Shown: positions 33,721-53,990, numbered from the stretch's first letter. The stretch is 64,000 nucleotides of DNA from an uncultured archaeon (GCA_903904885.1 CAIVED010000021.1:17456-81455); one strand, 5' to 3'. Program-made: numbers and translations. The notes: generated by a model from the sequence alone, not told the origin.

Positions 33721-33752
33721 GGTATTTAAAGTTTGCACGTCGCGGCCACAGC
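33721..33752 (+). promoter_or_regulatory. TATA (ggtatttaaag) plus GC box (gcacgtcgcggccac)
   Basis: Member of the recurrent TATA + ACGTSGCGGCC motif family. It is followed by a second TATA-like agatttataaatc (33758-33770) ahead of the lipoprotein gene. Confidence 0.5.
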
Positions 33753-33808
33753 AGCATTAGATTTATAAATCAAAGCCGGTTTAGAAGACAATGGGGGGTG
33801 TTAGATAC

Positions 33809-34363
33809 ATGAAAAAACTTTTGGTACTTTTGGTGATTTTGTCTTTTTTCATTGTTGGCTGCGAAAAGCAGGCAGAGCCGAGCAATGCAGCCACCACTGG
33901 CGGAGAAAGCCAGCAGGAAACAGCGCCTGCTGCACAGCCGGCTGCAACTCAAAACCCTGCAGAGACAAACCAGGCAGATTCTGACCAGAAACTGCTTAAC
34001 AAAATTGACTGGAACAGCATAGAGGATGGGGCAATACTCATTCAGGCGAATCAGTTTGGCGCTGTGGAGTATGTTGGCGCCGGCTCAGATCAGGGTTGGA
34101 GGATTTTTGTGCCTGATAAGAATGATTTCCTGGATTTCATAAACAATTATGACTTTGAGCTGACTACCCTGGAAGAGAACGGGAAAACTGTTTACAGGCT
34201 GAAGGAGATAAAGAGAAAGCCGGCTCCGGTCACAAATGGATTAAGCTTGCTGCCGCAAGATGTGCAGGGGGCTTTTGGAAATCTTTTAGCCAACTACCCT
34301 AACTTTCTCAGCTCAGGTAACGGAGTCAGCTCAAGCGGCATAGGCGGCGCAGGGCCAAGCTGA
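33809..34363 (+). CDS. Secreted lipoprotein-like protein (paralog of the 35054-35539 gene)
   Basis: MKKLLVLLVILSFFIVGC is a lipobox-like signal. The domain DWNSIEDGAILIQANQFGAVEYVG...NGKTVYRLKE is shared with the paralog. The start is adjusted to the internal Met. Confidence 0.6.
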   Translation: MKKLLVLLVILSFFIVGCEKQAEPSNAATTGGESQQETAPAAQPAATQNPAETNQADSDQKLLNKIDWNSIEDGAILIQANQFGAVEYVGAGSDQGWRIFVPDKNDFLDFINNYDFELTTLEENGKTVYRLKEIKRKPAPVTNGLSLLPQDVQGAFGNLLANYPNFLSSGNGVSSSGIGGAGPS

Positions 34364-34377
34364 ATATTTTTTTTATT

Positions 34378-34968
34378 TTATCTTACTGCACACAATCCGC
34401 TGCCCACTACTATCATTCTCTGGTTGAGGCAGGCCTTTTCAACTCCATCTTCGATTATCATTGGCATTGCGATTAATTTTGTAAGGGGTTCCTGCAGGTT
34501 AATGGTGTAATTTCTTGCCTCGGCCTTTGCAAAGCCAACATCGTCTTTAATGTACCTTTCTGTTCCGTTTTCTGTCGTGGCGTAGAACCACATTCCGTCA
34601 ATTCCGTTGCCTTTTCCTGAGTACATTAATATTGCTTTTATCCTGGTTCCGTTCATCTGGCAGGCATTTGTTGCCGGCGCCCAGTTTATGGCATAGCGGA
34701 TATTGCAGTTTTTTACTTCCTCAGGCTTCTGATTTGCAAGAACCGGCTTTGATTTTGGCTCCGGTGTGAGATTTTTTGGCTGTTGGACTGTTTCATTATT
34801 GTCGCAGACACTATTGCTATTTTGGTCTAAACAGCAGCCGCCATCAAATTGCATGTACGGCGGTTCGCATAAAACCACTTTTGGAGCCTCTGCCGGCTTT
34901 TGGCAGCCGGCAATAAGTAAGGCTGCTAAAATGAATGGGATGAGAAATAATAGTCTTTTCATAAGCAC
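34378..34968 (-). CDS. Secreted Cys-rich lipoprotein-like protein
   Basis: Signal peptide with IAGCQKPAE. There are about 12 Cys in the mature part. It lies between the two lipoprotein paralogs. Confidence 0.55.
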   Translation of the reverse strand: MLMKRLLFLIPFILAALLIAGCQKPAEAPKVVLCEPPYMQFDGGCCLDQNSNSVCDNNETVQQPKNLTPEPKSKPVLANQKPEEVKNCNIRYAINWAPATNACQMNGTRIKAILMYSGKGNGIDGMWFYATTENGTERYIKDDVGFAKAEARNYTINLQEPLTKLIAMPMIIEDGVEKACLNQRMIVVGSGLCAVR

Positions 34969-35053
34969 TTTAAAGGAGTTTTTGTTTAAAAATCTTTCTC
35001 AATTGAGATAAATTTTTAAAGTCAATATGGCTGAATAAACCAAAACAGGGGGT

Positions 35054-35539
35054 ATGATGAACATGAAACGATTATTTGCAATATTGGTTATTCTGGCGTT
35101 GGTTCTTATGGGCTGCCAAAAACAAACAGAGCAGAAAACTGCGACTGCTGAGCAAGTCAGTGCGCCAAAAGCAGCGGTTGTTCAGGAAACACCAAAACAG
35201 GAAGAAAAAAATGCATTGTTTGATAAAATAGACTGGAACAGCATACCTGACAAATCAATAATCCTTTTTGTGGAAAAGTTCGGCGCTGAGCAGTATGTTA
35301 ATTACGGCTCCGCCAGAACATTGAGGCTTCTTATTCCCATAAAAAATGATTTTAAGGAGTTCGTAACCAAATATGATTTCAAGCTTGAGACGCTTAAAAA
35401 CAACGGAAAAACTGTTTATGCCCTTACAGAGCTTGGCAGAAGGCAGACCTTAAGCAAAAACGGGTTTGACAGCCTTCCCAGTGAAGTGAAAGCTGCCTAT
35501 GAAAATCTTTTGGACAAGTATCCCAACCTGCTTGAATGA
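35054..35539 (+). CDS. Secreted lipoprotein-like protein (paralog of the 33809-34363 gene)
   Basis: LMGCQKQTEQ lipobox. DWNSIPDKSIILFVEKFGAEQYVNYG...NGKTVYALTE. Confidence 0.6.
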   Translation: MMNMKRLFAILVILALVLMGCQKQTEQKTATAEQVSAPKAAVVQETPKQEEKNALFDKIDWNSIPDKSIILFVEKFGAEQYVNYGSARTLRLLIPIKNDFKEFVTKYDFKLETLKNNGKTVYALTELGRRQTLSKNGFDSLPSEVKAAYENLLDKYPNLLE

Positions 35540-35573
35540 TTAGCTTTAAAAATACGGCGGGGATAATCACTGC

Positions 35574-37248: not shown

Positions 37249-37290
37249 GGTATTTAAACCTTGCACGTGGCGATGATGGCAACGTGAGAA
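37249..37290. promoter_or_regulatory. Repeat/promoter module ggtatttaaaccttgcacgtggcgatg (copy 1), palindromic TATA plus CACGTGGCG box
   Basis: 26 nt (37250-37275) are identical to 38461-38486. On the minus strand it reads gtgcaaggtttaaatac, a BRE/TATA, upstream of the Bro-N gene. Confidence 0.55.
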
Positions 37291-37299
37291 TAAACTATT

Positions 37300-37827
37300 T
37301 TAGATCAGCTTTTTCATTTCAAACACAAATTCCTTTGCTCTTTGAAGTGAGGTTTTTGCCCTGGATTCCTTTGTCTTTTCAAGCATATCATACTGGAATC
37401 TTGAACGCTTGCCTAACTCAAAGCTGTAGAATTCTATAACCTCCTCTGCTCTTGCATTTGCAATTTCAAGAGCATCATCTTTTATGTTTTCATAGTCTTC
37501 CAATAGGTCCTTTTTTAATTTATTTAGAACAAGGACTATCAACGCATCATTTGTAACCTTGTGAGCAATCTTGTCCTGAATTTTGTAGCCAAGGTTCAAA
37601 AGAACAGCATTTGCAGCGTAGAACATTGAATAGTATGACGTGACTATAACCCAGAGATATGGCCTGAGGCTGCTCTGCATAAGCTCGCTTGCCACAGCAA
37701 GGGAAAGCTCTGCATTTTCAATGTATTTTTCCTTTGCTGCCTCATTTGTCTCTTTTTTCAGAAGACCTTCTTCTAAGTATCTTGAGAAGTTATTTTTCGC
37801 TTCCTTTGTTCTTGTTTCATCTATCAT
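37300..37827 (-). CDS. HEPN domain protein (PF05168-type), partner of the MNT gene
   Basis: VIVTSYYSMFYAANAVLLNLGYKI...RAEEVIEFY...RSRFQYD. Its start overlaps the MNT stop by 4 nt. Confidence 0.65.
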   Translation of the reverse strand: MIDETRTKEAKNNFSRYLEEGLLKKETNEAAKEKYIENAELSLAVASELMQSSLRPYLWVIVTSYYSMFYAANAVLLNLGYKIQDKIAHKVTNDALIVLVLNKLKKDLLEDYENIKDDALEIANARAEEVIEFYSFELGKRSRFQYDMLEKTKESRAKTSLQRAKEFVFEMKKLI

Positions 37828-38390
37828 TTTATCAGTTCATAATAGCTTTCAATTCCGTGAAGTATCACATTGTTTGCTATTGCTTCCGAGCCTACTGTCA
37901 TTTTTTTTGAATTTTTCATTTCAATGAATTCAGCTTCGCTGAATATGTTTATATGAAGATCAAGAGGAATTGTGTCTGCGATGCGGTTTATTTCCTTTAT
38001 TTCATCAGGTACTATGAACAGAAGGTCTATGTCTGAATTGTTTTTGGCTGTTTTCTTTGCGTGGGATCCAAAAAGCAGAAGTATGAAAAGTTTTGTTTTC
38101 AGTCCGGAGACAAAGCTGTCCAGCATTACCTTGAGGTTTTTGTTTTTCAAAGTATCTTCTCTTCTTTCATATTCTGCCCGATAAATTAGAGGATTTGGGC
38201 GGGGGATTAATTCTATTTTTGCTGATTTGCCGAAAGCTGTTGTTTTTAGTATTCCCGTTTTTTCAAGCCTTTTGACTATTGTATGGGCGGTCTTGTAATC
38301 CTTTCCTGCTATCCTGGCAAGTCTGCTTATGTTCATGTCACCCTTGTTTTCTATCAAAGCCTTGATTATTGATGTTTCTTTGGTTCTCAT
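37824..38390 (-). CDS. Minimal nucleotidyltransferase (MNT, Pol-beta fold) fused to N-terminal winged HTH
   Basis: The N-terminus has ISRLARIAGKDYKTAHTIVKRLEKTGIL, a wHTH. The NTase motif is LLFGSHAKKTAKNNSDIDLLFIVPDE. Confidence 0.7.
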   Translation of the reverse strand: MRTKETSIIKALIENKGDMNISRLARIAGKDYKTAHTIVKRLEKTGILKTTAFGKSAKIELIPRPNPLIYRAEYERREDTLKNKNLKVMLDSFVSGLKTKLFILLLFGSHAKKTAKNNSDIDLLFIVPDEIKEINRIADTIPLDLHINIFSEAEFIEMKNSKKMTVGSEAIANNVILHGIESYYELIK

Positions 38391-38459
38391 GGTAATATCA
38401 CCTTAATATTATGGTGTTATAGCCATATATAAACCTTTCTGTTGTGAACCAGGCTAATA

Positions 38460-38500
38460 TGTATTTAAACCTTGCACGTGGCGATGGAGACGGCGCAGGG
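38460..38500. promoter_or_regulatory. Repeat/promoter module tgtatttaaaccttgcacgtggcgatg + gagacggcgcaggg (copy 2)
   Basis: Identical 26-mer to copy 1. The extension gagacggcgYaggg is shared with the 40541-40554 element. It lies upstream of the MNT-HEPN operon on the minus strand. Confidence 0.55.
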
Positions 38501-38503
38501 AGA

Positions 38504-39025
38504 TTATATCACATCACTCTTCGTGATTATTCCGGCAATCTTGTGCTTCTCCATTACTAAGACTGCAGAATTATGCTTGAGCAGGTCAATAACGGTTGTC
38601 AAAGGAGTCTTGCTGCCTATGGCTGGCAAAGGATCATCAAGCGCATCAGATACAATTTTCTTTCCGAAGTTTTCCAGTATGCTTCTTTCTGATATGCTCC
38701 CGATAATTCTATCCCGGGAATCCGTTACCGGCAGCTGCGATATGCCTTTCTGCTTCATTAAGGCAGCTGCTTTCCTTATTTCATCGCTTTCTTTTGCAAT
38801 GGTTACATTCCTGTTCATCACGTCTGCTGCTGTTTTTTCGTTTTTTAGCTCAATTGATTCCAGTGCATCAAATATCTTCTCTGCTTTCTCGTAGGTTGGG
38901 CTTACCCTTCCTGCCTCTATCTTGACTAATAACGACTGGGAAATTCCTGAAAGGCTTGACAGCTCTGCCTGGGTCAGTTCCAATGCTTTCCTTCTTCTCT
39001 TTATTTCTTCTATCTTTGGTAACAT
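38504..39025 (-). CDS. XRE-type HTH transcriptional regulator fused to tandem CBS domains
   Basis: N-terminal LTQAELSSLSGISQSLLVKIEAGRVSPTY is an XRE HTH. CBS pairs have motifs such as DVMNRNVTIAKESDEIRKAAALMKQKGISQLPV. Confidence 0.7.
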   Translation of the reverse strand: MLPKIEEIKRRRKALELTQAELSSLSGISQSLLVKIEAGRVSPTYEKAEKIFDALESIELKNEKTAADVMNRNVTIAKESDEIRKAAALMKQKGISQLPVTDSRDRIIGSISERSILENFGKKIVSDALDDPLPAIGSKTPLTTVIDLLKHNSAVLVMEKHKIAGIITKSDVI

Positions 39026-40511: not shown

Positions 40512-40555
40512 CATATTTAAGGTTTGTGCGTGGCCACCGAGACGGCGTAGGGTTA
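40512..40555 (+). promoter_or_regulatory. TATA (catatttaagg) + GC box (tgtgcgtggccaccgagacggcgtaggg) driving radC-PIN operon
   Basis: Motif-family member. The radC ATG is 67 nt downstream of the TATA. Confidence 0.5.
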
Positions 40556-40580
40556 AAACATGCAGGGGAATTCTTAGTGC

Positions 40581-41631: not shown

Positions 41632-42481
41632 CATCAGTATATCCAAATATCACTTGATCTAACTGTTCCTCAGCCTCCTGCTTTTTTTCTTCAATCTTAT
41701 CTTTAAGATATTCTTCTATCTCATCTCCATAATAAGTTCTCAAGGATTCTTTGAAGTTTACTAATGAGATATATTTCCACAAACTAGAGAAGAAAATACT
41801 TCTTGTTTTCTCCCATCCAAGAAGCATAGTGGCTCTTGCAAAATCTGTTACCAAATCTAAAGTTTCTTTAGGCACTAATTTGAGAAGCTCTAATGGATCT
41901 ATCTCTTTTCCTGATATTATATCTTCTTTGAACTTGTAGAGTTTATTGTCATATTTTTTATATACTTCTTTTTGCAGATCTATTGGTTCTAATTTACAGT
42001 ACTGTTCTGATTTTTCTTTGATTAGAATTTCATAATCTAGTTTTATTTCACTTTCTTCATTTCCAGAATATATTAACACAGAACAAGGGCCATGCTGATA
42101 CCAGCCAACCGGAAGATTAAGGTTTTTTTCTTTCATTACCTCATAAATTATTTTGTACACATGAGTTTTAGCCGGGTTCTTGCCATAGGCTTCATTACAA
42201 TATTTTCTTATGAGGGCATAGATAGTATGCATTACTTTTTTTTCTTGCTCTCTGATTGGCAAGCTGAAATATGTATCATCAGAATTTTTTAGGGATATCA
42301 ATTTTTCTCTTCCATCATTTTTCACTTCAACAATTCCTCCTTTCTCAAATGCAGAGATATACTGAGAAACCGTTACTCTGTTTATTTTTGATGAATTGCT
42401 TAGCTGTGTTAAGGTCTGTTCTCCTTGTTTTAGAGAATTGATTATGCTGGGGATGATATCTGAAGGTGACTTTCTTTCCAT
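41579..42481 (-). CDS. Hypothetical protein with N-terminal winged-HTH
   Basis: LTQLSNSSKINRVTVSQYISAFEKGGIVEV near the N-terminus. AT-rich gene. 300 aa. Confidence 0.45.
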   Translation of the reverse strand: MERKSPSDIIPSIINSLKQGEQTLTQLSNSSKINRVTVSQYISAFEKGGIVEVKNDGREKLISLKNSDDTYFSLPIREQEKKVMHTIYALIRKYCNEAYGKNPAKTHVYKIIYEVMKEKNLNLPVGWYQHGPCSVLIYSGNEESEIKLDYEILIKEKSEQYCKLEPIDLQKEVYKKYDNKLYKFKEDIISGKEIDPLELLKLVPKETLDLVTDFARATMLLGWEKTRSIFFSSLWKYISLVNFKESLRTYYGDEIEEYLKDKIEEKKQEAEEQLDQVIFGYTDAKYSRDELYQRWVKQKK

Positions 42482-45325: not shown

Positions 45326-46758
45326 TTTTTAATACTTTTCTGAATAGTATCGATAATTTCAGATATTTTTTTGCTGTTTTCATTTAATTTTGTCAATAAT
45401 TCAGGTATTGTATGATTTTGAGAAGTTTCAACATTACTTGGATTATTCACATCCAAATTATAATTCCTTTTCTTTATTTCATCAATGGTTACTTTCCAGC
45501 AATTCTTTGAGAATTTCTCATCTTCTCTGTTCTTCCACCATTCTTTTTCTAAGTCAAACTCTTCAATTCTGATTGGCTTGGTTTTATTGTATGTTTTAGC
45601 TCCTTCTGGAAGTGGATGTTCAAAATACCATATCTCTTTTGTTCCTTTGCCAGATTTTTCAAAGAACAAGAGATTTGTTCTAATCCCAGTATATGGACTA
45701 AACACCCCGTTTGGCAATCTAACAATTGTATGAAGATTAAATTCAGATAGCAATTTTTCTTTTATTCTTGTTTTTACTCCCTCACCAAATAAGAATCCAT
45801 CAGGTAAAACCATTCCACATCTTCCTTCATCTCGAAGTAATTTAGTAATCAAAACTAAAAATAAATCTGCGGTTTCTCTAGTTCTATAAGCTGATGGAAA
45901 GTTTGATTCTATTCCTGGTTCCTCTGCGCCCCCAAATGGTGGATTGGTTACGACAACATCAACCATATCTGCGGGGCCATAATCTGCTAAAGGTCTAGCC
46001 AATGAATTGTCATGTCTTATATTTGGAACTTCAACGCCATGAAGAATCATATTGGTAGTGCAAAGCAAATGAGCAAGAGGCTTTTTTTCAATTCCGTTAA
46101 TATTCTTCTGTAAAGTGTCCCAATCTTCATCGCTTTTTGCGTTTTTCTTCATCTTTTCCAAAGCACAAATCAAAAAGCCTCCTGTTCCGCAAGCAGGATC
46201 AAGGACTTTTTCTCCCAGTTTTGGATTAACCATGTCAACAATAAACTGAGTTACTGCTCTAGGCGTGTAGTATTCTCCTGCATTTCCTGCAGATTGTAAA
46301 TCAGAAAGAATTTTCTCATATATATCATTAAACATATGCCTATCTTCTGACTTGTTGAAATCAACCTCATTTAGCTTATTGATAACTTGTCTAATTAGAG
46401 TTCCAGACTTCATGTAATTATAAGCATCTTCAAAAACTTCTTTGATAATAAACCCTTTTGGGTCATCTTCTTTAGACACATTTAATCCTTTTAATGTTTT
46501 GAATAATTTTCCAATGAAATCAAGAAGTTCATCACCAGTTATTCCTTCTTTATCTGCTGCCCAATTTCTCCATCTGAATTTTTCAGGAAGAGGGGATTTG
46601 TATTCTTCATTTTCTAATTCCCATTCTTTTTCTTTATCATCGAATATCTTTAGAAAAATCATCCAAACCAACTGAGAAATCCTTTGGGCATCTCCATCTA
46701 CTCCTGCATCTTGACGCATTATATCTTGTATTGATTTTATTATTGTTGATATTGACAT
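45322..46758 (-). CDS. hsdM: Type I R-M N6-adenine DNA methyltransferase HsdM
   Basis: Motif I is VLDPACGTGGFL. Motif IV is VVTNPPFGG. Confidence 0.9.
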   Translation of the reverse strand: MSISTIIKSIQDIMRQDAGVDGDAQRISQLVWMIFLKIFDDKEKEWELENEEYKSPLPEKFRWRNWAADKEGITGDELLDFIGKLFKTLKGLNVSKEDDPKGFIIKEVFEDAYNYMKSGTLIRQVINKLNEVDFNKSEDRHMFNDIYEKILSDLQSAGNAGEYYTPRAVTQFIVDMVNPKLGEKVLDPACGTGGFLICALEKMKKNAKSDEDWDTLQKNINGIEKKPLAHLLCTTNMILHGVEVPNIRHDNSLARPLADYGPADMVDVVVTNPPFGGAEEPGIESNFPSAYRTRETADLFLVLITKLLRDEGRCGMVLPDGFLFGEGVKTRIKEKLLSEFNLHTIVRLPNGVFSPYTGIRTNLLFFEKSGKGTKEIWYFEHPLPEGAKTYNKTKPIRIEEFDLEKEWWKNREDEKFSKNCWKVTIDEIKKRNYNLDVNNPSNVETSQNHTIPELLTKLNENSKKISEIIDTIQKSIKK

Positions 46759-46760
46759 TT

Positions 46761-49085
46761 TTAACTCCCCGCATATAATTGTTCTTTAATCTCGTTTAGA
46801 GCTTTAAGGTACTTTTCTTTTCCACCAAAAGATTCTATTATTTCTACAGGTGTTCCAAATTCTCTAAATGGATTGACTTTCAAAATAGTCATTGTTTCTA
46901 TATTCTCTATTCCTTCGTCTGCATATTTGTCAAGAAGAGCTTCTATTATTTTACGCGCTTTTTCACCATATTTTGTGAAATAATTTCTCTTTTTAACATT
47001 ATTTGCTCTTTCTTTTCTTGTTAAAGGTTTTTGGTCAAAAGCGACATGGCAAACTAAGTCAAATTCATCGAAGTTTTTCCCAACTTCTTCTTTTAGTTCA
47101 TGAAGAAATATTCCATTTTCTATCATTTCCTGGATTATTGCAGATTTTTTATCTGTGGATTTCCATTTTTTTAGGAAATTGTCTAGTGACTTAAACTCTT
47201 TTGTCGCTGTTTTCTTTGTATAATCCTTTAACGATTCTGTGATTAGTTTTCCCTCTTTGTCAAATATTTGCACTCTTTCATTTAGAACTCTTACTTCTAC
47301 ATTATTAACATAATACTTTCTGGGTTTATCTGGCGATTCTTTCAGCAAATAAACTTGTTCCTGAACAGAACCATAAACTTTCTCAATCGGGGCAGTTTCA
47401 GGAATTATAATTTCTTCATCTGCTGTAAACTCCTCACATTGTACTGGTTCACCATCAAAGTCAGGATCAGCAAATAAATTTGTTACTTGTCTAAAATCCA
47501 TGATAGTAAAATAAGATTTATCATAGTCTTCTCTTATTCTGGTTCCCCTTCCAATAATCTGTTTAAATTCAGTCATAGATTGTATGTTGCTTTCCAGAAC
47601 AATTAATTTGCATGTCTGAGCATCAACCCCCGTATTAAGTAGTTTTGATGTTGTTGCTATAACTGGATATTTTGATGATGGGTCGATGAAATTATCTAGT
47701 TCTCGTTTACCCAGAATATCATCTCCTGTGATTTTTACAACATATTTTGAATTTTTTGTGACTAAATCCTTATTTTCATTACAGAGCGCTCTTCTCATTC
47801 TTTCAGCATGTTCTATATCTACACAGAAAACTATTGTTTTGTCAAATCTATTTGTCTTTTTTAGATATTCTGTAATTTTTTTAGCAACTAATATTGTTCG
47901 GGCGTCTAGTACAATATTCCTATCATAATCTTTTATATTATAGATCCTATCGGGTATTTCATTGCCATATTTGTCAATTTTTCCTTTTTCAGGTCTATAT
48001 CCTTCAACGTCTTTATCTATTGTAATTCTTATAACTTTATATGGTGCTAAGAACCCATCCTGAATTCCTTGTTTTAATGAATAAACATAAAGAGGTTTTC
48101 CAAAATAATGACTATTTGAAACATCTCTATCCTCTTTTGGTGTTGCAGTCAACCCAATTTGTGTTGCTTTAGGGAAATATTCTAAAACCTCTCTCCATTG
48201 AGAATTGATTGCTGCGCTACCTCTATGGCACTCATCTACAATTATTAAATCAAAGAATTCTTTTGAAAATTGCTTATAGATATTTTTCCATTCTTCGTTA
48301 CCTGTAACTGATTGGTATAATGCAAGGTAAACTTCATAAGATGTGTCAACCTTTCTGTTAGTTATTCTAGTCATAACCTTGCTGAAAATCTTAAAGTCAT
48401 TATTACGTGGTTGAGTTAATAATACATCTCTATCAGTTAAGAAGAGTACTCTTTTTTTTGTTTTTGATTCTAATAACTTATGCATGATTTGAGAAGCCAC
48501 ATAAGTTTTTCCAGTTCCAGTAGCTAAAACTAGCAAAATTCTATCTTGACCTTTAGCAACTGCTTCTACAGTTCTATTAATTGCAATTTGCTGATAATAT
48601 CTTGGTTTCTTTTGTCCAGCATAATAATCTTGTGTAATAATTTCTTCCTGCTTCTTGCTTATCCCTTTCCATTCCTTATATCGATTCCACAATTCATCTG
48701 GACTTGGAAATTTGTCCAAAGACAACTCTTTTTCAACTTCTTTAGAGTTACCTGTTTTATCATGCTCAATAAATCCATCTCCATTTGAGCTGTAAACAAA
48801 AGGAATATCTAGAATTTCTCCATAATCCAGAGCCTGCTGGATTCCCGAACCAATATCGTGATTATTATCTTTTGCTTCAATTATTGCTATTGGCAAATTT
48901 GGCTTATAATAAAGAATGTAGTCTGCTCTTTTCTTTTCCCCTCTTATTGTTTTATCTCCTTTTAAAAGAATTCTCCCATCTGTAAAAGTAACTTCTTCTC
49001 TAAACAATTGCCAGCCCGAATGTTTAATCGAAGGAGTTATGTATTTTGTACAAATATCCCTTTCAGAGAGTGATTTTTTATTCAT
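46761..49085 (-). CDS. hsdR: Type I R-M restriction subunit HsdR (SF2 helicase/endonuclease)
   Basis: Walker A is LVLATGTGKTYVA. The DEAH box is IIVDECHRGS. An N-terminal nuclease region is present. 774 aa. Confidence 0.9.
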   Translation of the reverse strand: MNKKSLSERDICTKYITPSIKHSGWQLFREEVTFTDGRILLKGDKTIRGEKKRADYILYYKPNLPIAIIEAKDNNHDIGSGIQQALDYGEILDIPFVYSSNGDGFIEHDKTGNSKEVEKELSLDKFPSPDELWNRYKEWKGISKKQEEIITQDYYAGQKKPRYYQQIAINRTVEAVAKGQDRILLVLATGTGKTYVASQIMHKLLESKTKKRVLFLTDRDVLLTQPRNNDFKIFSKVMTRITNRKVDTSYEVYLALYQSVTGNEEWKNIYKQFSKEFFDLIIVDECHRGSAAINSQWREVLEYFPKATQIGLTATPKEDRDVSNSHYFGKPLYVYSLKQGIQDGFLAPYKVIRITIDKDVEGYRPEKGKIDKYGNEIPDRIYNIKDYDRNIVLDARTILVAKKITEYLKKTNRFDKTIVFCVDIEHAERMRRALCNENKDLVTKNSKYVVKITGDDILGKRELDNFIDPSSKYPVIATTSKLLNTGVDAQTCKLIVLESNIQSMTEFKQIIGRGTRIREDYDKSYFTIMDFRQVTNLFADPDFDGEPVQCEEFTADEEIIIPETAPIEKVYGSVQEQVYLLKESPDKPRKYYVNNVEVRVLNERVQIFDKEGKLITESLKDYTKKTATKEFKSLDNFLKKWKSTDKKSAIIQEMIENGIFLHELKEEVGKNFDEFDLVCHVAFDQKPLTRKERANNVKKRNYFTKYGEKARKIIEALLDKYADEGIENIETMTILKVNPFREFGTPVEIIESFGGKEKYLKALNEIKEQLYAGS

Positions 49086-49156
49086 TTTATTGGTCTAATA
49101 ACTATTAATTTTATAAAGATTATCTTTGCCTTAGTTAGCCATTCCCCACAATCCTT

Positions 49157-50320
49157 TCAATCATCTTCTTTTCTGTTTGATAAAGATACTCTATATCCCT
49201 TCTCTTTATCAACCATCTTATCTACATCCGAATCAATCTCTCCTTTTATCGCATCTGAATTTAGTCTTGAATAACAAATCATCGAATACACATCATAAAG
49301 CCCCTTCTTCTTAAGTAAAGCTATCAACTTAGTCTTGTCTTCAGGTAAAACAACAGATAAATACTCCCTAACCGCCGCTTTCTTATTCGAACCAAAGACT
49401 ACTTCAATTCCTTTCTGCTTGGCAAATAATATAATCTCATCTTTTAGCTCTTCCATCTTCTCTTCTGCATTCTTTTTAACTAGCTGCAATTTAGAATACT
49501 CATCAACCATCTTGACTCCAGCGTCTTTCTTGAATTCTTTGGCTGTTTTCAGCTCAAGCTCAATGTCATGCTTCCAGGCAGGGCAGATTGATTTATAAGA
49601 GCAGTAATCACACAAAGCAGTAACCTTAGTTGGAAATTCTTTTGCTTTCTCAACTTCCTTTATCAGTGCCATTGTATCGTCCTGAAGCTTCTTCAGCTGC
49701 GCATCTGTCCTTTCAGAAGTAACTTCCTTGTTGAAGGCAAGCATGTGCCACAGAAGAACTACTTTTTTGGCATCCTTGAAAGTATTCTTAACCCAGATTG
49801 AATACATAGCCAATTGCCTGTCTTCATCAGCCTCCTGCTGGTCTTTCATCCTGTTATTTGACTTGTAATCGCAGACATAATAAACACCGTTTTTGAAGCC
49901 TAATTTGTCCATTCTCACATGATAATGATTTCCATCAGGAAGATGCAGTCTGTCCTGTGTTTCAAGCCCTAAAATAGTCATCTGGTCAAAAGGAGCATAA
50001 TTATTATAGTAATCTGTCAAATACTTCTCTCCCATCAGCTTATAATTTTTAGCAGAATAATCTTTCTTTACAATTATTATGTCATCTGTCCAGCTCTTAT
50101 CCCATGAATCCCTGTAAAATTTAAGCAAGTCCTTCAAAGAATTCAGTTTCTGGAATTTTAAGTCCTTATACAGCTTCTCAAGCGCTTCATGAACGCGGCT
50201 GCCCATAAATGCTTCAACTGACTCTGCACCTTCAATCTTAACACCATCAATATACTGCAATTTATACTTATACCTGCATTGCGAAAATGTGCTTAGTTTG
50301 GAATGCGAGTAAGTGGCCAT
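49157..50320 (-). CDS. Cas4-like PD-(D/E)XK nuclease with Cys cluster (stand-alone)
   Basis: N-terminal SHSKLSTFSQCRYKYKLQYI. The core is VRMDKLGFKNGVYYVCDYKS...QLAMY. The C-terminus is CDYCSYKSICPAW. Paralog of the ORF at 14667-15482. Confidence 0.6.
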   Translation of the reverse strand: MATYSHSKLSTFSQCRYKYKLQYIDGVKIEGAESVEAFMGSRVHEALEKLYKDLKFQKLNSLKDLLKFYRDSWDKSWTDDIIIVKKDYSAKNYKLMGEKYLTDYYNNYAPFDQMTILGLETQDRLHLPDGNHYHVRMDKLGFKNGVYYVCDYKSNNRMKDQQEADEDRQLAMYSIWVKNTFKDAKKVVLLWHMLAFNKEVTSERTDAQLKKLQDDTMALIKEVEKAKEFPTKVTALCDYCSYKSICPAWKHDIELELKTAKEFKKDAGVKMVDEYSKLQLVKKNAEEKMEELKDEIILFAKQKGIEVVFGSNKKAAVREYLSVVLPEDKTKLIALLKKKGLYDVYSMICYSRLNSDAIKGEIDSDVDKMVDKEKGYRVSLSNRKEDD

Positions 50321-50365
50321 TCTGGGAGTATTGATTGTTTGTTATTTATAAATCTTGCAGCAGGA

Positions 50366-50412
50366 TGTCTAGTGGGTCGCGGCCGCCACGTCTTAAAATT
50401 AAATACTCAAAG
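50366..50412. promoter_or_regulatory. Divergent promoter region with central GC box gtcgcggccgccacgtc (NotI site) flanked by ttaaaattaaatac
   Basis: Motif-family member lying between the divergent Cas4-like (-) and NYN (+) genes. A tttataaat TATA (50344-50352) faces the minus-strand gene. Confidence 0.5.
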
Positions 50413-50427
50413 TATTCTTAAATATTA

Positions 50428-51162
50428 ATGGAAAAACGAAAATCTTATATAGCTCCTGAGCTTAAAAATTCATATTTAAGTCCCCAGTATGACCTCCTTG
50501 GAGGGAATGCTGGGCATCCTTCTCATGCCGTTGTTTTTGTAGATGCCAATAACTGGTATCATAATGTTAAGAAATTTATTGACCCAAGCGAAGTTGATAT
50601 TCTTAAAGTGGCTAAGTTTCTATGCGAAGTCAAAAAGTATAATTTAGTTGGGGTAAGATGGTACGCTTCAACTCCAAGCATTGCGGATGGGGAAAGAATG
50701 TACTACAAGCATATGGCTTTTTTGCAGCATCTCGAGAAAAAAGGAATAAAAGTTATTACCCGGAAACTTCAAAGAATATCAAATAAGGAAATCCAGAAGA
50801 AAAGAAGGGACACTATAGACAACCTGGACTTGTGCGATCATTGCAGGCCTCTGGTTGAATCTGTTTTTCTTGACTTGGCTGATCTGAAGAAAAAAGAAAA
50901 AGGCATAGATGTCTGGGTTGCGATCGACATGATAAAAGAGTCTGTAATTGACAAAAACTGCGATGTTTGCATACTTATCTCCGGAGATGCTGACTTCACT
51001 CCTGCACTGAGCCTCATAAAAAGCCATGGGAAGGAAGTGCTTACTGCGATGGTTCCTTTTGGATATTCTTCAGAACTTATAAGGGAATTTCCATTTTTTA
51101 TATTGAGAAAAGAAACTCTGATGAAATGCCTAAGAGGCTACAGAGAGAAACCTCCCAGTTAG
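50428..51162 (+). CDS. NYN-domain (LabA-like) putative RNase
   Basis: VVFVDANNWYHN...DVWVAIDM...ILISGDADFTPAL are NYN/PIN-like acidic motifs. Confidence 0.7.
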   Translation: MEKRKSYIAPELKNSYLSPQYDLLGGNAGHPSHAVVFVDANNWYHNVKKFIDPSEVDILKVAKFLCEVKKYNLVGVRWYASTPSIADGERMYYKHMAFLQHLEKKGIKVITRKLQRISNKEIQKKRRDTIDNLDLCDHCRPLVESVFLDLADLKKKEKGIDVWVAIDMIKESVIDKNCDVCILISGDADFTPALSLIKSHGKEVLTAMVPFGYSSELIREFPFFILRKETLMKCLRGYREKPPS

Positions 51163-51175
51163 TAATAATTTTGTT

Positions 51176-51445
51176 TCAGACCCTGATGCCCTTTGCAATT
51201 GCCTTCCTCAGTTTTTCGCTTGGGTTGTATATCCATGTTATGCCCTTCAGGCCAACAAGAATCTTCCCGCTTTTTTCAAGATAGTCAAGCACTATCATGA
51301 GTGTGTTATGGTTTACCTGCCTTGGAAGCTTTCTTTTCAGCTCAGCGATTTTCATTACGCTGCCTTCCATTTTTTTCAGGACAGTCTCAACCATCAAAAC
51401 GGTGTTCAATGTTGGTGAGTGTTCAAGCATTTGCATTTTAATCAC
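51176..51445 (-). CDS. Small winged-helix-like protein (89 aa)
   Basis: MKIAELKRKLPRQVNHNTLMIVLDYLEKSGKILV is wHTH-like. Confidence 0.4.
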   Translation of the reverse strand: MIKMQMLEHSPTLNTVLMVETVLKKMEGSVMKIAELKRKLPRQVNHNTLMIVLDYLEKSGKILVGLKGITWIYNPSEKLRKAIAKGIRV

Positions 51446-51526
51446 TTTTAGTTATTAATTAATAACTATAAGTTATTAACTTATATATAAATCTTTCGGC
51501 CTGAACAAGTAAGAATTAGAAGGGAA

Positions 51527-51566
51527 GTATTTAATCCTACGCCGTTGCGGCCGCAACTGCGTAACC
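51527..51566 (+). promoter_or_regulatory. TATA (gtatttaatcc) + 20-bp near-perfect palindrome gccgttgcggccgcaactgc
   Basis: Motif-family member. It is inserted between ctttcgg and ttaatattgttaac, two blocks that are contiguous in the paralogous flank at 52513-52540. Confidence 0.5.
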
Positions 51567-51629
51567 TTTTAAATCGCTAGTTAACACTCTTAACCAAAAC
51601 AGCCAAAAAACAGTTATTTGTTAATATTG

Positions 51630-52193
51630 TTAACCAACCAGCGCATGTTCTATCTTGTAGCTGACGCCCCACGTATCAAAAACCTGCTTTAGCACGTCCT
51701 CTTTTGAAGCAGAGACAAGAATTGAGCCGGTGCCCATGAATCTTCCACCCACCTCTTTTAGAATCCCCTCCCTGCCTCCCCTTCCCTTAAGCAGGTAATG
51801 GAACTGGACCCGTTTGGAAGGGGAAAACTTCTTCAAAGTATAGACAAAAATGCTCTTGTTCTCAAAACCCATGACCTGGGCCATGAATTTCCGGTTTTTA
51901 ATGCTGTATCCCTCATTAAGCAGTGTTTTTGAGAGGGTATTTCCTGAAACAAGCGCCCCAAGAGTCAATATGCTTATATGAGCATCAATTATTTTTGAAA
52001 GCGAATTGACAAGATCAATGCTTTTCTTTTCATCAGAATCATCTATTATTATGCACAGGTCAATATCTCTTGGATTTTTTTTGCCTCTTGAGGAAGAGCC
52101 GAACATGATAACATCAAATATTTTGCCTGATTTTATCCATTTTCTTATTTCAGAGAATGAGTTTTTTTGCATTTTCCACCTCGGTTTTGACAA
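51630..52193 (-). CDS. Nucleotidyltransferase (MNT-type, Pol-beta fold) with C-terminal extension
   Basis: IMFGSSSRGKKNPRDIDLCIIIDDSDE is the GS...D.D NTase motif. It overlaps the upstream HEPN gene by 44 nt. Confidence 0.7.
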   Translation of the reverse strand: MSKPRWKMQKNSFSEIRKWIKSGKIFDVIMFGSSSRGKKNPRDIDLCIIIDDSDEKKSIDLVNSLSKIIDAHISILTLGALVSGNTLSKTLLNEGYSIKNRKFMAQVMGFENKSIFVYTLKKFSPSKRVQFHYLLKGRGGREGILKEVGGRFMGTGSILVSASKEDVLKQVFDTWGVSYKIEHALVG

Positions 52194-52482
52194 GTTTAGC
52201 GATCGTTTCGCTTATCTCCTTGTTGTATGAATCCCGGTAAAACCTGAAAAGTTTTGAAGAAATAGCATAAATTTCAGGTGAAACCTTTTCAAGCATCTCA
52301 AATCTTTCAGTGTGATTTGCCCCGAGCTTGCCTGTTTTCCTGATAAGCTCCAAATCACAGAGCTCAACAAGCGCCTTGTAATAAAGAGTAACTGCTGTAT
52401 TGAATTTTCTTCTTGAGAATGAATATTCAGCTATTTCAATGAACTCCCTGAAATTTTTCTCTATTACCTCTGTTTCAGCCAT
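52150..52482 (-). CDS. HEPN domain protein (PF05168-type)
   Basis: FNTAVTLYYKALVELCDLELIRKTG...RFYRDSY. Confidence 0.65.
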   Translation of the reverse strand: MAETEVIEKNFREFIEIAEYSFSRRKFNTAVTLYYKALVELCDLELIRKTGKLGANHTERFEMLEKVSPEIYAISSKLFRFYRDSYNKEISETIAKLVKTEVENAKKLIL

Positions 52483-52546
52483 GTTAAGAGTATTAACCTA
52501 TAAAGGATATTTAAACCTTTCGGTTAATATTGTTAACTGGGTTATA

Positions 52547-53230
52547 TTAAACCTTCCAACTCCCGCTCGCATCTTCGCGGGAACAGACAGAATAGTCAAT
52601 CTTTCGCTTAACATGCGTTTCAAAGCATTCGCTGGCAAGCAGGGGAGTATTATTGTTCCCTGATAAATGCCCCAATAAAACCAAAGAAAGGTTATTGCCT
52701 TTGCTTTGAACCAGCGAGCTTGCGGTTTCATTGCTCAGATGGCCCTGGTCCGAGAGAATCCAGTTTTTCAGGAAATGGGGATAGCGCCCGTTCTTGAGCA
52801 TCTCAACGTCATGGTTGGATTCCAACAGCACAGCATTCAAATGCTTCATGGCCGTTTCCATCTGGGGCGTAACCATGCCTGTGTCTGTAAACAGCCCGAA
52901 TTTGCCGATAACAAACCCTGAAGAGGGAACATTATGGGAAGTCAAAACAGGCTTTATCTCCAGGTTTTTAATTTTAAAATTCCCTGTGAACCTGTTAACA
53001 TACAGCGGGATATTATAGCGCCGGGAAATCACACCTGCACCGCAGACATGGTCTGAATGTGAATGGGTTATAACACAGGCATCAACATTTTCTAAACTTT
53101 TTCCGAGAGAATTCATCCTTTTCTCAAGCTCCCTCCCGCTCTTGCCGGCATCGATAAGAACAGAAACTCCTTTGTCCTCAACCAGGCAGCAGTTGCCGTT
53201 GCTCCCGGATGCTATAACTGAGATTTCCAT
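52547..53230 (-). CDS. Metallo-beta-lactamase-fold hydrolase
   Basis: VITHSHSDHVCGAG is the HxHxDH motif. 227 aa. Confidence 0.75.
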   Translation of the reverse strand: MEISVIASGSNGNCCLVEDKGVSVLIDAGKSGRELEKRMNSLGKSLENVDACVITHSHSDHVCGAGVISRRYNIPLYVNRFTGNFKIKNLEIKPVLTSHNVPSSGFVIGKFGLFTDTGMVTPQMETAMKHLNAVLLESNHDVEMLKNGRYPHFLKNWILSDQGHLSNETASSLVQSKGNNLSLVLLGHLSGNNNTPLLASECFETHVKRKIDYSVCSREDASGSWKV

Positions 53231-53277
53231 TTATTTTAAGAAACAATGAAGCTGTTTATAACTCTTTTTATTGTGGT

Positions 53278-53919
53278 CTATCTCCTTAAAAAGAATTTAT
53301 TAGCTATTTTCTTGCTTATGACTGCATTCATATCGCATTCTTTCAGCAAATCCAGCGAAATATTCCCCTCAAAATGATAATTTTCAACCATCTTGCCAAG
53401 CATTTTTACCTGTCTCACCAAGGGAGCAAAATCACCATCACCGCTTATCAGGATTGAAGTGTCATACTTGTTCTCATAGGCATCCCGAAGCATATCTATT
53501 GCAAGATGAATATCATCTCCCTTTATTGTGAAAAACTCCTTGCCGTCTTTGTTAGTCCTTCTCTGCCTTTTGCATAGAATAACATTAAATCTATGTATTT
53601 TCACCAATCTTGCAAAAAACTGCTGCTGTTTCCTGAAAGACTCGGGGTTTATCTGCTGTTTCAGGGAAGCATTATAGTAATAAACAGAAACTAGATATCG
53701 TTGACCAACAATTTTCTTTATGTAGCTTTCAAAATCAAACTTGAAATCAGTATATCTTTCATTTATTGACTTTATTCCATAAAGAAAATTCGCTCCATCT
53801 ATATAAACTGAAACGCGATTAGAATGGTACCCGTCTTGCGTTTGCAAGAACGGGGAACACAATGCGGTATTCTGCAAAGCAGATTCCGGCGCTACCTGGC
53901 ACCAATGAATGTTATTCAT
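53278..53919 (-). CDS. NYN-domain (LabA-like) putative RNase, paralog of the 50428-51162 gene
   Basis: VSVYIDGANFLYG...IHLAIDM...ILISGDGDFAPL. Confidence 0.7.
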   Translation of the reverse strand: MNNIHWCQVAPESALQNTALCSPFLQTQDGYHSNRVSVYIDGANFLYGIKSINERYTDFKFDFESYIKKIVGQRYLVSVYYYNASLKQQINPESFRKQQQFFARLVKIHRFNVILCKRQRRTNKDGKEFFTIKGDDIHLAIDMLRDAYENKYDTSILISGDGDFAPLVRQVKMLGKMVENYHFEGNISLDLLKECDMNAVISKKIANKFFLRR

Positions 53920-53944
53920 CTCGGATATTTAAAGTTTTCGCCCC

Positions 53945-53990
53945 TCTTAAACTTTATACGTCGCGGCCGCCACGGCGAACATTTAAAACA
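53945..53990. promoter_or_regulatory. Divergent promoter with central GC box acgtcgcggccgccacggcg (NotI site) flanked by tttaaa elements
   Basis: Lies between the NYN (-) and RFC (+) genes. An acatttaaaac TATA sits ~40 nt upstream of the RFC ATG at 54025. Confidence 0.5.

What the first reader, a model, noticed from the sequence alone, without database searches (positions are those of the whole stretch)
33721..53990. Recurrent TATA + GC-rich palindromic box (NotI-containing ACGTSGCGGCCGCC / CACGTGGCG) at >=8 promoters, concentrated in the accessory island
The same promoter module recurs at 33721-33752, 37249-37290, 38460-38500, 40512-40555, 50366-50412, 51527-51566 and 53945-53990. Weaker relatives occur at 13651-13690 (tatatataa-N6-gcgtcgcgttcgggacg) and 14668-14683 (tatttaaaccttgcac, the nucS promoter). 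Each copy pairs a near-palindromic TATA (ggtatttaaacc, which reads as ggtttaaatacc on the other strand) with a 15-20 bp GC-rich dyad about 6 nt away. The dyad variants are cacgtggcg, acgtcgcggccac, gtcgcggccgccacgtc, gccgttgcggccgcaactgc and acgtcgcggccgccacggcg. Three copies contain the 8-bp NotI palindrome GCGGCCGC, which is unexpected in a ~40% GC genome. The box occupies the TATA-to-TSS interval, a classic archaeal repressor position. It can sit on either side of the TATA relative to the gene. In two cases it lies between divergent genes: Cas4-like and NYN, and NYN and RFC. Two copies also share a downstream extension gagacggcgYaggg. The pattern suggests a regulon-wide operator for the island's nuclease, TA and R-M genes. 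Candidate regulators encoded locally are the HTH-CBS protein (38504-39025), the wHTH-MNT protein (37824-38390) and a small wHTH (51176-51445). Alternatively it could be the footprint of a small mobile promoter cassette.
Basis: seen in the sequence. Interest (0 to 1): 0.8.

Follow-up and report, generated by a model that had tools for sequence, protein, structure and literature searches.

The report
Portable back-to-back promoter module with GC dyad
A roughly 45-base unit recurs at seven gene-cassette junctions of a strain-variable island in an uncultured DPANN archaeon: two outward-facing archaeal promoters flank a GC-rich dyad, so the GC box lies upstream of both promoters and appears to travel with accessory genes.

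Summary
Seven copies of TATTTAAA-NN-TTGCACGTSGCG... lie at the stated coordinates, against 0.2 expected. All three NotI sites of the window are inside them (0.25 expected). No copy lies outside 33.7-54.0 kb.

The positional reading is probably wrong. BRE orientation and TATA-to-ATG gaps of 19-25 nt (leaderless, as for nucS and RFC) indicate that both flanking TATA boxes fire outward. The GC dyad therefore sits between two back-to-back promoters, upstream of both, and not between TATA and TSS.

The organism is a Woesearchaeota-like DPANN archaeon. In relatives the class I aaRS and RFC genes are adjacent; here about 20 kb of TA, NYN, nuclease and R-M genes lies between them.

Near-identical modules occur in related metagenome contigs next to unrelated genes (28/28 nt identity with nothing else aligning). 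Every comparison shows a synteny break at the module. Orthologous promoters (wHTH, NYN, RFC, DUF2683) carry different cores or none.

Best reading: a lineage-specific portable divergent promoter plus operator that spreads with cassette rearrangement. The binding protein is unknown. A recombination-site role is not excluded. Hairpin-dependent mechanisms (attC, REP) are disfavoured.

The parts
33722..33771 (.). Module M1. TATA-L is at 33723-33730 and faces the MazE-PIN operon on the minus strand. The core ACGTCGCGGCC starts at 33737. The right TATA (33764-33771) is 19 nt from the lipoprotein ATG at 33791.
   Evidence: The orthologous copy in L015 (4417-4464) keeps the left half only.
37250..37296 (.). 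Module M2 (class A core CACGTGGCGATGATGG). TATA-L is at 37251-37258 and read outward lies 23 nt from the Bro-N ATG (37227, minus strand). The right side abuts the HEPN stop codon at 37300.
   Evidence: L042 3320-3347 is 28/28 nt identical.
38461..38508 (.). Module M3 (class A core, second half-site GAGACGGCGCAGGG). TATA-L is at 38462-38469, 28 nt upstream of the standard promoter P1 (TATA 38426-38433) of the wHTH-MNT/HEPN operon. The right side abuts the HTH-CBS stop codon at 38504.
40513..40558 (.). Module M4. TATA-L is at 40514-40521, upstream of P1 (40468-40475) of the 84-aa gene on the minus strand. The core is GTGCGTGGCCACCGAGACGGCGTAGG. TATA-R (40551-40558) is 22 nt from the RadC ATG at 40581.
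50343..50405 (.). Module M5, in inverted orientation. The TATA at 50343-50350 lies 22 nt from the Cas4-like ATG (50320, minus strand; first gene of the Cas4/type I R-M string). The core GGGTCGCGGCCGCCACGTC (50374-50392) contains a NotI site. The TATA at 50398-50405 lies 22 nt from the NYN ATG at 50428.
51526..51577 (.). Module M6. TATA-L is at 51528-51535, 36 nt upstream of P1 (51483-51490) of the small wHTH gene. The core is a near-perfect 26-bp palindrome, TACGCCGTTGCGGCCGCAACTGCGTA, containing a NotI site. TATA-R (51567-51574) faces no ORF and points at the 3' end of the MNT-like gene.
   Evidence: (I1, I2)
53945..53989 (.). Module M7. TATA-L is at 53945-53952 and lies 25 nt from the NYN ATG (53919, minus strand). 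The core ACGTCGCGGCCGCCACGGCG contains a NotI site. TATA-R is at 53982-53989. RFC's own conserved promoter TATA follows at 53996-54003, 21 nt before the ATG at 54025.
   Evidence: It is 88% identical over 42 nt to the L007 module.
33745..53980 (.). Strain-variable accessory island bounded by M1 and M7. It carries the lipoprotein, HAD, Bro-N, HEPN/MNT, HTH-CBS, RadC, PIN, ClpP, type I R-M, Cas4-like, NYN (two copies), wHTH and MBL genes. It lies between aaRS/PIN-MazE and RFC, which are adjacent or nearly so in relatives.
   Evidence: Pfam; synteny
13652..13698 (.). Weak relative outside the island. Two outward leaderless promoters (gaps of 20 and 21 nt to the ATGs at 13631 on the minus strand and 13720 on the plus strand) flank the GC dyad GCGTCGCGTTCGGGACG.
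   Evidence: (E about 0.3)
14668..14683 (-). nucS promoter, GTGCAAGG-TTTAAATA, 21 nt before the ATG at 14646. It has the same BRE/TATA as the modules but no GC box, so it is not a member. It serves as a control for promoter orientation.

Best explanation
The element is a lineage-specific composite promoter module of about 45-50 bp in a Woesearchaeota-like DPANN archaeon.

Architecture (shown from sequence):
- Two core promoters (BRE+TATA) face outward, back to back, around a 14-18 bp GC-rich dyad.
- The layout is TATTTAAA-NN-TTGC | ACGTSGCG-GC-CGCSACG(G) | GCAA-NN-TTTAAA.
- ACGT and ACGG are always 14 bp apart. The middle is either the NotI palindrome or GGCGATGRAG.
- The GC core therefore lies upstream of both promoters, between the two BREs.
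- At the HEPN/RFC divergent promoter of a close relative (L044), an AT-rich palindrome occupies that same inter-BRE position.

Placement (shown):
- The better-conserved half (TATA-L) always faces the 5' end of an accessory gene or operon: MazE-PIN, Bro-N, MNT-HEPN, wHTH, NYN, DUF2683-RelE.
- It faces that gene either directly at leaderless distance, or 27-36 nt upstream of the operon's own promoter.
- The other half drives whatever lies beyond: RadC, the lipoprotein, and the Cas4-like gene that heads the R-M string here; Trm1 and a tyrosine recombinase in relatives. In some copies nothing lies beyond.
- Copies are much more alike than the genes they flank, and each sits at a synteny break.

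Inferred:
- The module is copied or carried along when accessory cassettes are rearranged. It acts as a portable divergent promoter.
- Its GC dyad is bound by a dimeric DNA-binding protein, identity unknown. That protein acts on both promoters from the BRE-proximal upstream position, either by recruiting TFB/TBP or by occluding both BREs.
For: 1. Recurrence is far above chance and restricted to the island.
2. Alignment of 13-15 copies shows fixed spacing and two-fold architecture.
3. Promoters fire outward.
   - BRE-like GCAARS lies on the inner side of each TATA. The nucS promoter has the identical GTGCAAGG-TTTAAATA.
   - Gaps from TATA to ATG are 23, 22, 25, 22, 19 and 22 nt for Bro-N, NYN, NYN, RadC, the lipoprotein and the Cas4-like gene.
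   - Non-module leaderless promoters give 20-25 nt.
   - The same holds in relatives for Trm1 (L007), the recombinase (L009) and the tRNA-U5 methyltransferase (L045).
4. Module similarity is decoupled from the flanks.
   - L042 is 28/28 nt identical to M2. L007 is 88% identical over 42 nt to M7. L011 is 94% identical over 34 nt to M3. Nothing else aligns in these contigs.
   - M5 and M7 share an identical 15-nt stretch of core, yet their NYN genes are only 27% identical.
5. Synteny breaks at the module in every comparison.
   - Window vs L015: homology ends at 33744.
   - Window vs L013: homology starts at 53992.
   - Window vs L044: MBL-NYN-M7 is present or absent.
   - Window vs L043 and L045: homology ends at TATA-L (51534) and at 50389.
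   - L007 vs L008: the far sides differ.
6. TATA-L faces a gene 5' end in 14 of 14 copies. No copy sits at a convergent junction.
7. No consistent single-strand hairpin exists (z from -2.0 to +1.8). There is no Rfam match.
8. The element family is narrowly distributed. A strict pattern found only the source MAG among 185,579 species genomes, and three related contigs among JGI metagenomes.
Against: - No transcription start sites are known. Promoter direction is inferred from BRE position and ATG spacing only.
- No binding protein is identified.
- The core is not conserved at orthologous promoters. wHTH has three different cores in three genomes; RFC has none in L013, L044, L017 and L018. This is unusual for a conserved regulon and fits a junction or recombination role equally well.
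- In M1, M3, M4 and M6 the flanking operon has its own standard promoter, so TATA-L may be redundant or inactive there.
- Only about 16 copies are known, and several relatives were found by searching for the motif itself.
- The rest of the source genome could not be scanned.
Confidence: 0.5

Rival explanations
1. The GC box is a repressor operator lying between TATA and TSS. It is bound by a regulator encoded in the island (HTH-CBS, wHTH-MNT or the small wHTH). It defines a regulon of the island's nuclease, TA and R-M genes.
For: - The motif recurs at a fixed distance from a TATA box and has dyad character.
- Several HTH genes are encoded in the island.
- Read inward, TATTTAAA would place a start near GAGACGGCG.
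Against: - BRE-like elements and the leaderless ATG spacing point outward.
- In M2, M5 and M7 the module TATA is the only promoter at the right distance for the outward gene.
- The small wHTH belongs to a family spread across several DPANN lineages and has its own AT-rich palindrome.
- Modules occur in relatives next to housekeeping genes: Trm1, a tRNA methyltransferase and tRNA-Leu.
- The core is not conserved at orthologous promoters.
Confidence: 0.12
2. The dyad is a recombination site, or a short portable stretch of homology, at which accessory cassettes are exchanged, excised as circles and re-inserted. The promoters are carried along. The module is then primarily a cassette junction.
For: - Every module coincides with a synteny breakpoint, and homology often ends inside or at the edge of the core.
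- NYN and wHTH are head-to-head around one TATA-core-TATA in L043. In the window they are tail-to-tail and flanked by M5 and M6. This is a circular permutation.
- Six of the seven window copies are in direct orientation.
- One relative carries two modules around a tRNA next to a tyrosine recombinase.
- The cargo (TA, R-M, secreted protein) resembles that of archaeal integron cassettes (PMC9668308).
Against: - No integrase or transposase Pfam domain is found in any major island ORF.
- There is no attC-like fold and no consistent hairpin.
- Genes are in mixed orientation and the sites sit at 5' ends rather than 3' ends.
- The L043 junction lacks the GC core.
- Breakpoints also occur at promoters without a module (L044). 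In these compact genomes almost all intergenic DNA is promoter, so breakpoints there are expected anyway.
Confidence: 0.2
3. The module is a selfish miniature palindromic element (MITE-like or REP-like). It inserts into TTTAAA or TATA boxes and duplicates the target, which would explain a TATA-like sequence on both sides.
For: - The element has dyad symmetry with TTTAAA or TTAAA on both flanks.
- Near-identical copies occur in unrelated contexts and in genomes of different GC content.
- The lineage distribution is narrow.
Against: - No filled-versus-empty site pair has both flanks contiguous. One flank always changes.
- Copies are never at convergent junctions or 3'-3' spacers.
- There is no stable hairpin.
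- At about 45 bp it is far below usual MITE size.
- No transposase or RAYT domain is found among the window ORFs scanned.
- Copies are clustered rather than dispersed.
Confidence: 0.08

Closest known systems
Putative mobile promoters (promoter propagation; Matus-Garcia et al. 2012, PMC3488235)
   Same: Highly similar non-coding stretches sit upstream of non-homologous genes within and between genomes. The proposed routes of spread are mobile elements, recombination-mediated duplication or HGT.
   Different: Those families were defined as 50-100 nt at 80% identity or more, mostly in bacteria. This unit is 26-45 nt, archaeal (BRE/TATA), two-fold symmetric, bidirectional, and confined to a cassette island.
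Archaeal upstream activating sequences and BRE-proximal regulator sites (Ptr2, TFB-RF1, EarA, HhpR; summarised in PMC11705074)
   Same: A cis-element lies immediately upstream of BRE/TATA, where bound factors recruit TBP or TFB.
   Different: No factor is known here. The element is shared by two back-to-back promoters. It is not conserved at orthologous promoters. Its sequence resemblance to any described site was not tested.
Integron attC sites and archaeal integron cassette arrays (Ghaly et al. 2022, PMC9668308)
   Same: A repeated site separates small accessory cassettes rich in TA, R-M and secreted proteins, and DPANN lineages are among the hosts. One gene pair is circularly permuted between genomes.
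   Different: There is no IntI, no attC fold, no R''/R' GTTRRRY motif, and the length is below 55 nt. Sites sit at the promoter ends of genes in mixed orientation, and they carry promoters.
Symmetric or bidirectional prokaryotic promoters (Warman et al., bioRxiv 10.1101/2020.01.31.928960; P. furiosus antisense TSS study PMC6640164)
   Same: Divergent transcription arises from a compact region with symmetric promoter elements (titles and abstracts only).
   Different: Here there are two separate TATA boxes about 37 bp apart with a conserved GC dyad between them, and the whole unit is repeated.
REP/REPIN elements and MITEs
   Same: Short palindromic intergenic repeats present in several copies.
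   Different: No stable hairpin, no empty sites, no RAYT or transposase, and always on the promoter side of a gene.

Membership tests
Shared transcription-factor operator (regulon cis-element) | The motif recurs upstream of several genes above chance. | tested here: met
Shared transcription-factor operator (regulon cis-element) | The motif holds a fixed position relative to the core promoter. | tested here: met
   ACGT starts 6 nt from the TATA in all copies, and the core abuts the BRE. The position is upstream of the TATA, not downstream.
Shared transcription-factor operator (regulon cis-element) | The site is conserved at orthologous promoters in related genomes. | tested here: not met
   wHTH has three different cores in the window, L043 and L045. 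RFC has no core in L013, L044, L015 (distal), L017 and L018. DUF2683 keeps the core in 3 of 4 contigs.
Shared transcription-factor operator (regulon cis-element) | A cognate DNA-binding protein binds the site. | not testable with these tools
   This needs EMSA, footprinting or DNA pull-down.
Integron (attC cassette array) | An integron integrase (IntI) is adjacent, or the sites show the attC fold with R''/L''/L'/R' and extrahelical bases over 55-140 nt. | tested here: not met
   No Phage_integrase hit in the major island ORFs. The units are about 45 nt with ssDNA folding z from -2.0 to +1.8. No RYYYAAC...GTTRRRY pair is seen by inspection. The dedicated attC covariance model was not available.
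Integron (attC cassette array) | ORFs are co-oriented and mostly promoterless, with the site at each 3' end. | tested here: not met
   Gene orientation is mixed, and the sites lie at 5' ends and contain TATA/BRE.
MITE / REP-like mobile repeat | Filled and empty sites have both flanks contiguous, with a target-site duplication. | tested here: not met
   One flank differs in all six comparisons.
MITE / REP-like mobile repeat | A stable hairpin (REP) and an associated RAYT or transposase. | tested here: not met
   for folding. No transposase domain is found in the scanned ORFs. The rest of the genome was not available.
Putative mobile promoter (PMP) | Homologous promoter sequence lies upstream of non-homologous CDSs. 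| tested here: met
   The same module sits upstream of MazE, Bro-N, MNT, NYN, wHTH, RadC, DUF2683, Trm1 and a recombinase.
Putative mobile promoter (PMP) | At least 50 nt at 80% identity or more (operational definition in PMC3488235). | tested here: not met
   The longest alignments are 42 nt at 88% (M7/L007), 34 nt at 94% and 28 nt at 100%.

The most novel reading that the evidence does not exclude
The GC dyad is the crossover site of a cassette-exchange system in DPANN archaea. Its cassettes carry their own outward promoters at the junction. Functionally it would be integron-like, but without IntI or attC, with sites at the 5' (promoter) end of cassettes. Any gene placed next to a junction, even a core gene such as RFC or Trm1, would be supplied with a promoter.
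Probability: 0.12. Interest if true: 0.8.

Novelty: new variant of a known kind. Interest (0 to 1): 0.45.

Why it matters
DPANN archaea have tiny genomes, few recognisable regulators and no genetic systems. Almost nothing is known about how their accessory (TA, defence) genes are expressed or shuffled.

A compact, sequence-defined divergent promoter plus operator gives a concrete handle for three things:
- in vitro transcription and DNA pull-down experiments to find a DPANN transcription factor;
- annotating leaderless gene starts;
- tracking cassette rearrangement in strain-resolved metagenomes.

If the dyad proved to be a recombination site, it would be a new way of building gene-cassette islands in archaea.

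Tried and rejected
- RNA gene or known RNA motif: Rfam at gathering score on the whole window, and at E<=1 on the island and E<=0.1 on eight related loci, found only tRNA-Phe. ARAGORN found the same.
- Hairpin or cruciform element: ssDNA folding of nine modules is not better than shuffles as a family. The positions next to GCGGCCGC are mostly non-complementary (C..C, G..G).
- Viral or proviral origin: two IMG/VR scans gave only chance matches in 60-73% GC phage contigs and one unrelated coding match.
- Micro-ORFs starting at the conserved GATG (MMAT*, MKTA*): the ATG is 14 nt from the TATA, too close for a leaderless start, so this was rejected.
- The ORF at 38472-38894 (+), which starts inside M3, lies antisense to the Pfam-supported HTH-CBS gene and has no Pfam hit. 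It is probably spurious.
- GC dyads as a generic feature of divergent promoters: the other divergent intergenic regions of the island (34968/35054, 39025/39078, 42481/42621) and those of relatives (L017, L018, L044) are AT-rich.
- RFC as a regulated target: RFC keeps its own conserved promoter, and the module is absent upstream of RFC in L013, L044, L017 and L018.
- Extending the source contig: several ENA contigs of the same population are listed without DNA.

Full report

Yes.
- TTAAANNTTGCACGTSGCG with up to 3 mismatches gives 5 matches against 0.20 expected.
- The palindromic form ACGTSGCGGCCGCSACGT gives 2 matches against 0.01 expected.
- GCGGCCGC occurs three times against 0.25 expected, each inside a module.
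- RCGTSGCG occurs 7 times against 1.24 expected, six of them beside an intergenic TATA.
- The repeat finder recovers the family independently (D1, D5, D6, I1, I2).
- A half-site PWM at 14 bits or more finds only the seven modules in 64 kb, plus one weak hit at the tRNA-Phe promoter, and nothing at 20 bits or more outside 33.7-54.0 kb.
- GC-rich 16-mers flanked by TATA-like boxes on both sides occur only at M4-M6; M7 was flagged on its right side only, although its left TATA-like box (53945-53952) lies 5 nt from the block.

**2. Anatomy**

I aligned the window copies with relatives found later. The unit is TATTTAAA-NN-TTGC-ACGT-[N10]-ACGG-CRWA-N(1-3)-TTAAA.
- The N10 is either SGCGGCCGCS (class B; M5, M6, M7, L007, L008) or GGCGATGRAG / GGCCACCGAG (class A; M2, M3, M4, L009, L042).
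- The left half is better conserved than the right half.
- As a family the units do not fold into stable single-strand hairpins (z from -2.0 to +1.8).
- No Rfam family matches.

**3. Which way do the TATA boxes fire?**

The evidence points outward.
- Standard promoters of this genome read (C)GAAAG(G/A)-TTTAWATA followed by 20-25 nt and then ATG, so genes are mostly leaderless. Examples are nucS (21 nt), RFC (21), the 110-aa HEPN gene (25), and the genes starting at 13631 (20) and 13720 (21).
- In the modules the A-rich BRE-like hexamer (GCAAGG, GCAAAC, GCAAGA, ATAAAG) lies on the core side of each TATA. The nucS promoter has exactly the same GTGCAAGG-TTTAAATA without any GC box.
- Read outward, the module TATA boxes lie at leaderless distance from ATG codons: 23 nt for Bro-N, 22 and 25 nt for the two NYN genes, 22 nt for RadC, 19 nt for the lipoprotein and 22 nt for the Cas4-like gene.
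- In relatives the same holds for Trm1 (L007), a tyrosine recombinase (L009/L011) and a tRNA-U5 methyltransferase (L045).
- The GC dyad therefore sits between two back-to-back promoters, upstream of both BREs. The 'TATA-to-TSS repressor position' is not supported. This step is inferred from sequence, because no TSS data exist.

**4. A second regularity**

TATA-L faces the 5' end of a gene in all 14 copies examined.
- In M1, M3, M4, M6, L007, L008, L042, L043 and L011-A it lies 27-36 nt upstream of the standard promoter of a small TA-like or wHTH operon: MazE-PIN, wHTH-MNT/HEPN, an 84-aa gene, the small wHTH, DUF2683-RelE.
- The right side faces a gene start in six copies. In the rest it faces a 3' end or non-coding DNA.
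- No copy sits at a convergent junction.

**5. Organism and context**

- The window is 100% identical to a 1.6-kb contig of 'uncultured archaeon AM-sed-core3-D1_bin-502'.
- Its RFC large subunit is closest to named Woesearchaeota and Nanoarchaeota proteins.
- In relatives L017 and L018/L019 the class I aaRS (minus strand) and RFC (plus strand) are adjacent and divergent.
- In the window, GNAT, an AAA kinase-like gene and PIN-MazE follow the aaRS, and then M1. About 20 kb of accessory genes comes next: Bro-N, HEPN/MNT, HTH-CBS, RadC, PIN, ClpP, type I R-M, Cas4-like, two NYN genes, wHTH and MBL. Then come M7 and RFC.
- L015 (78% RFC identity) has aaRS-AAA-PIN-antitoxin, an M1-like half module, about 190 bp, and then RFC.
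- L044 (89%) has the 110-aa HEPN gene (94% identical) directly divergent from RFC, with no GC box.
- L013 (92%) diverges from the window just upstream of RFC's own promoter, at 53992.
- The island is therefore strain-variable, and M7 is not an RFC element.

**6. Relatives of the module**

- A strict pattern scan of 185,579 species genomes found only the source MAG; the other four hits are chance matches in bacteria.
- JGI metagenomes gave three related contigs. Later look-ups added L015, L042, L043 and L045.
- Between these contigs and the window, only the module aligns. L042 is 28/28 nt identical to M2. L007 is 88% identical over 42 nt to M7. L011 is 94% identical over 34 nt to M3. L008 is 96% identical over 26 nt to M2.
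- M5 and M7 share an identical 15-nt core stretch, although their NYN genes are only 27% identical.
- A profile search of about 190 kb of related loci finds no further strong copies. It gives only marginal hits at 13655-13694, in L043 and in L045.

**7. Junction behaviour**

- The DUF2683-RelE cassette keeps a module upstream in L008, L007 and L043. In L042 the core is AT-rich. The far-side neighbour is different in every contig.
- The small wHTH gene with its promoter is 85-89% identical in the window, L043 and L045. Homology stops at TATA-L (51534) in both comparisons, and the core differs each time:
  - window: CGCAGTTGCGGCCGCAACGGCG;
  - L043: AAGACGCTGTTAGTATCAC;
  - L045: TTGCGTGGCGCTTACCACGC.
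  The far side is nothing, an NYN remnant and a tRNA methyltransferase respectively.
- In L043 the NYN 5' end and wHTH are head-to-head around one TATA-core-TATA. In the window they are tail-to-tail and bracketed by M5 and M6, which are inverted copies (81% over 32 nt, I2). This is a circular permutation.

**8. Interpretation**

- Shown: the element is a discrete, conserved, two-fold promoter unit. It is confined to accessory DNA of one narrow DPANN lineage. It always lies on the promoter side of genes and always at a synteny break.
- Inferred: it is a portable divergent promoter. Its GC dyad sits in the inter-BRE position, which in L044 holds an AT-rich palindrome at the HEPN/RFC promoter. 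The dyad is therefore most simply a binding site for a dimeric protein acting on both promoters. The position resembles archaeal UAS and BRE-proximal regulator sites (PMC11705074). The pattern of spread resembles 'putative mobile promoters' (PMC3488235).
- The non-conservation at orthologous promoters and the permutation keep a recombination-site reading alive (about 0.2).
- attC, REP and MITE mechanisms fail their defining tests. There is no IntI or transposase domain in the island, no consistent hairpin, no empty sites, and the sites lie at 5' ends.

**9. Local regulators**

- The small wHTH belongs to a family spread across several DPANN lineages (2,397 hits; 65-91% identity among the 118 non-self proteins listed, which carry Woesearchaeota, Micrarchaeota, Aenigmarchaeota, Diapherotrites and Nanoarchaeota labels).
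- It carries its own conserved AT-rich palindrome between its promoter and its ATG (51438-51479). It is an unlikely binder of the GC box.
- HTH-CBS, wHTH-MNT and the 300-aa ArsR-like protein remain untested.

**10. Limits**

- There are no TSS or binding data.
- Only about 16 copies are known, and some were found through the motif itself.
- The rest of the source genome and several sibling contigs were not available as DNA.
- The large-collection scans used a strict pattern.

**Verdict**

This is a real, lineage-specific cis-element. The element is best described as a new variant of mobile or shared promoter modules, and it is of moderate interest.

Noticed in passing
window 28972-56995; L015, L017, L018, L044: The class I aaRS and RFC-large genes are adjacent in relatives. 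Here they are separated by about 22.7 kb. The RFC-to-class II aaRS gap also varies: a subtilase in the window, MNT plus a 161-aa gene in L013, DUF8150 plus a 344-aa gene in L015, and nothing in L018 or L044. Both sides of RFC appear to be insertion hot spots.
   Followed up: partly
window 51620-51634 and 52523-52537: The exact 15-mer GTTAATATTGTTAAC occurs twice (0 expected). The two copies bracket the 110-aa HEPN/MNT-like operon (51630-52482), one in its promoter and one at its 3' end. The promoter copy is conserved in L044. It is probably the TA autoregulation operator; the 3' copy is unexplained.
   Followed up: partly
window 51438-51479 (also L043 1899-1940, L045 about 2413-2454): An AT-rich inverted repeat, TTAATCACTTTTAGTTATTAA / TTAATAACTATAAGTTATTAA, lies between the promoter and the ATG (51436, MQMLEH...) of the small wHTH gene and is conserved in relatives. 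The wHTH family has 2,397 hits; the 118 non-self proteins listed are 65-91% identical and carry several DPANN phylum labels. It has no Pfam family.
   Followed up: partly
L011 258-367 (minus strand): By eye this is a tRNA-Leu(GAG)-like gene with an insertion of about 16-18 nt in the T-loop region. ARAGORN and Rfam both miss it. It is flanked by two modules 286 bp apart and lies next to a 299-aa tyrosine recombinase. An 18-nt partial copy of its variable-arm segment lies about 40 nt upstream (404-421).
   Followed up: partly
window about 42000-50000: The type I R-M operon (hsdS, hsdM, hsdR at 43865-49085) and its neighbours have 32-35% GC, against about 42-45% elsewhere. This suggests a separate, more recent acquisition within the island.
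   Followed up: no
window 13652-13698: Outside the island, a divergent pair of leaderless genes (118 aa on the minus strand, 70 aa on the plus strand, neither with a Pfam hit) has a different GC dyad, GCGTCGCGTTCGGGACG, between its TATA boxes. The pair lies just upstream of the nucS gene and a Cas4/Dna2-like nuclease gene.
   Followed up: partly
L043 1650-1793 (minus strand) versus window 50389-50545: L043 carries a truncated remnant of the NYN gene: only the 5' 140 bp or so, 87% identical. It abuts a DUF2683-RelE cassette. This is evidence of cassette-by-cassette turnover in relatives.
   Followed up: yes
L042 2594-2620 and L043 1795-1850: An AT-rich 'class C' version of the module, TATTTAAA-YT-TTAGAAGT-N10-RCGTC, occurs upstream of DUF2683 in L042 and upstream of wHTH in L043. 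The architecture is kept while the core sequence differs.
   Followed up: partly
window 38472-38894 (+): A 140-aa TTG-initiated ORF starts inside module M3 and runs antisense to the HTH-CBS gene. It has no Pfam hit and is probably not a gene.
   Followed up: partly
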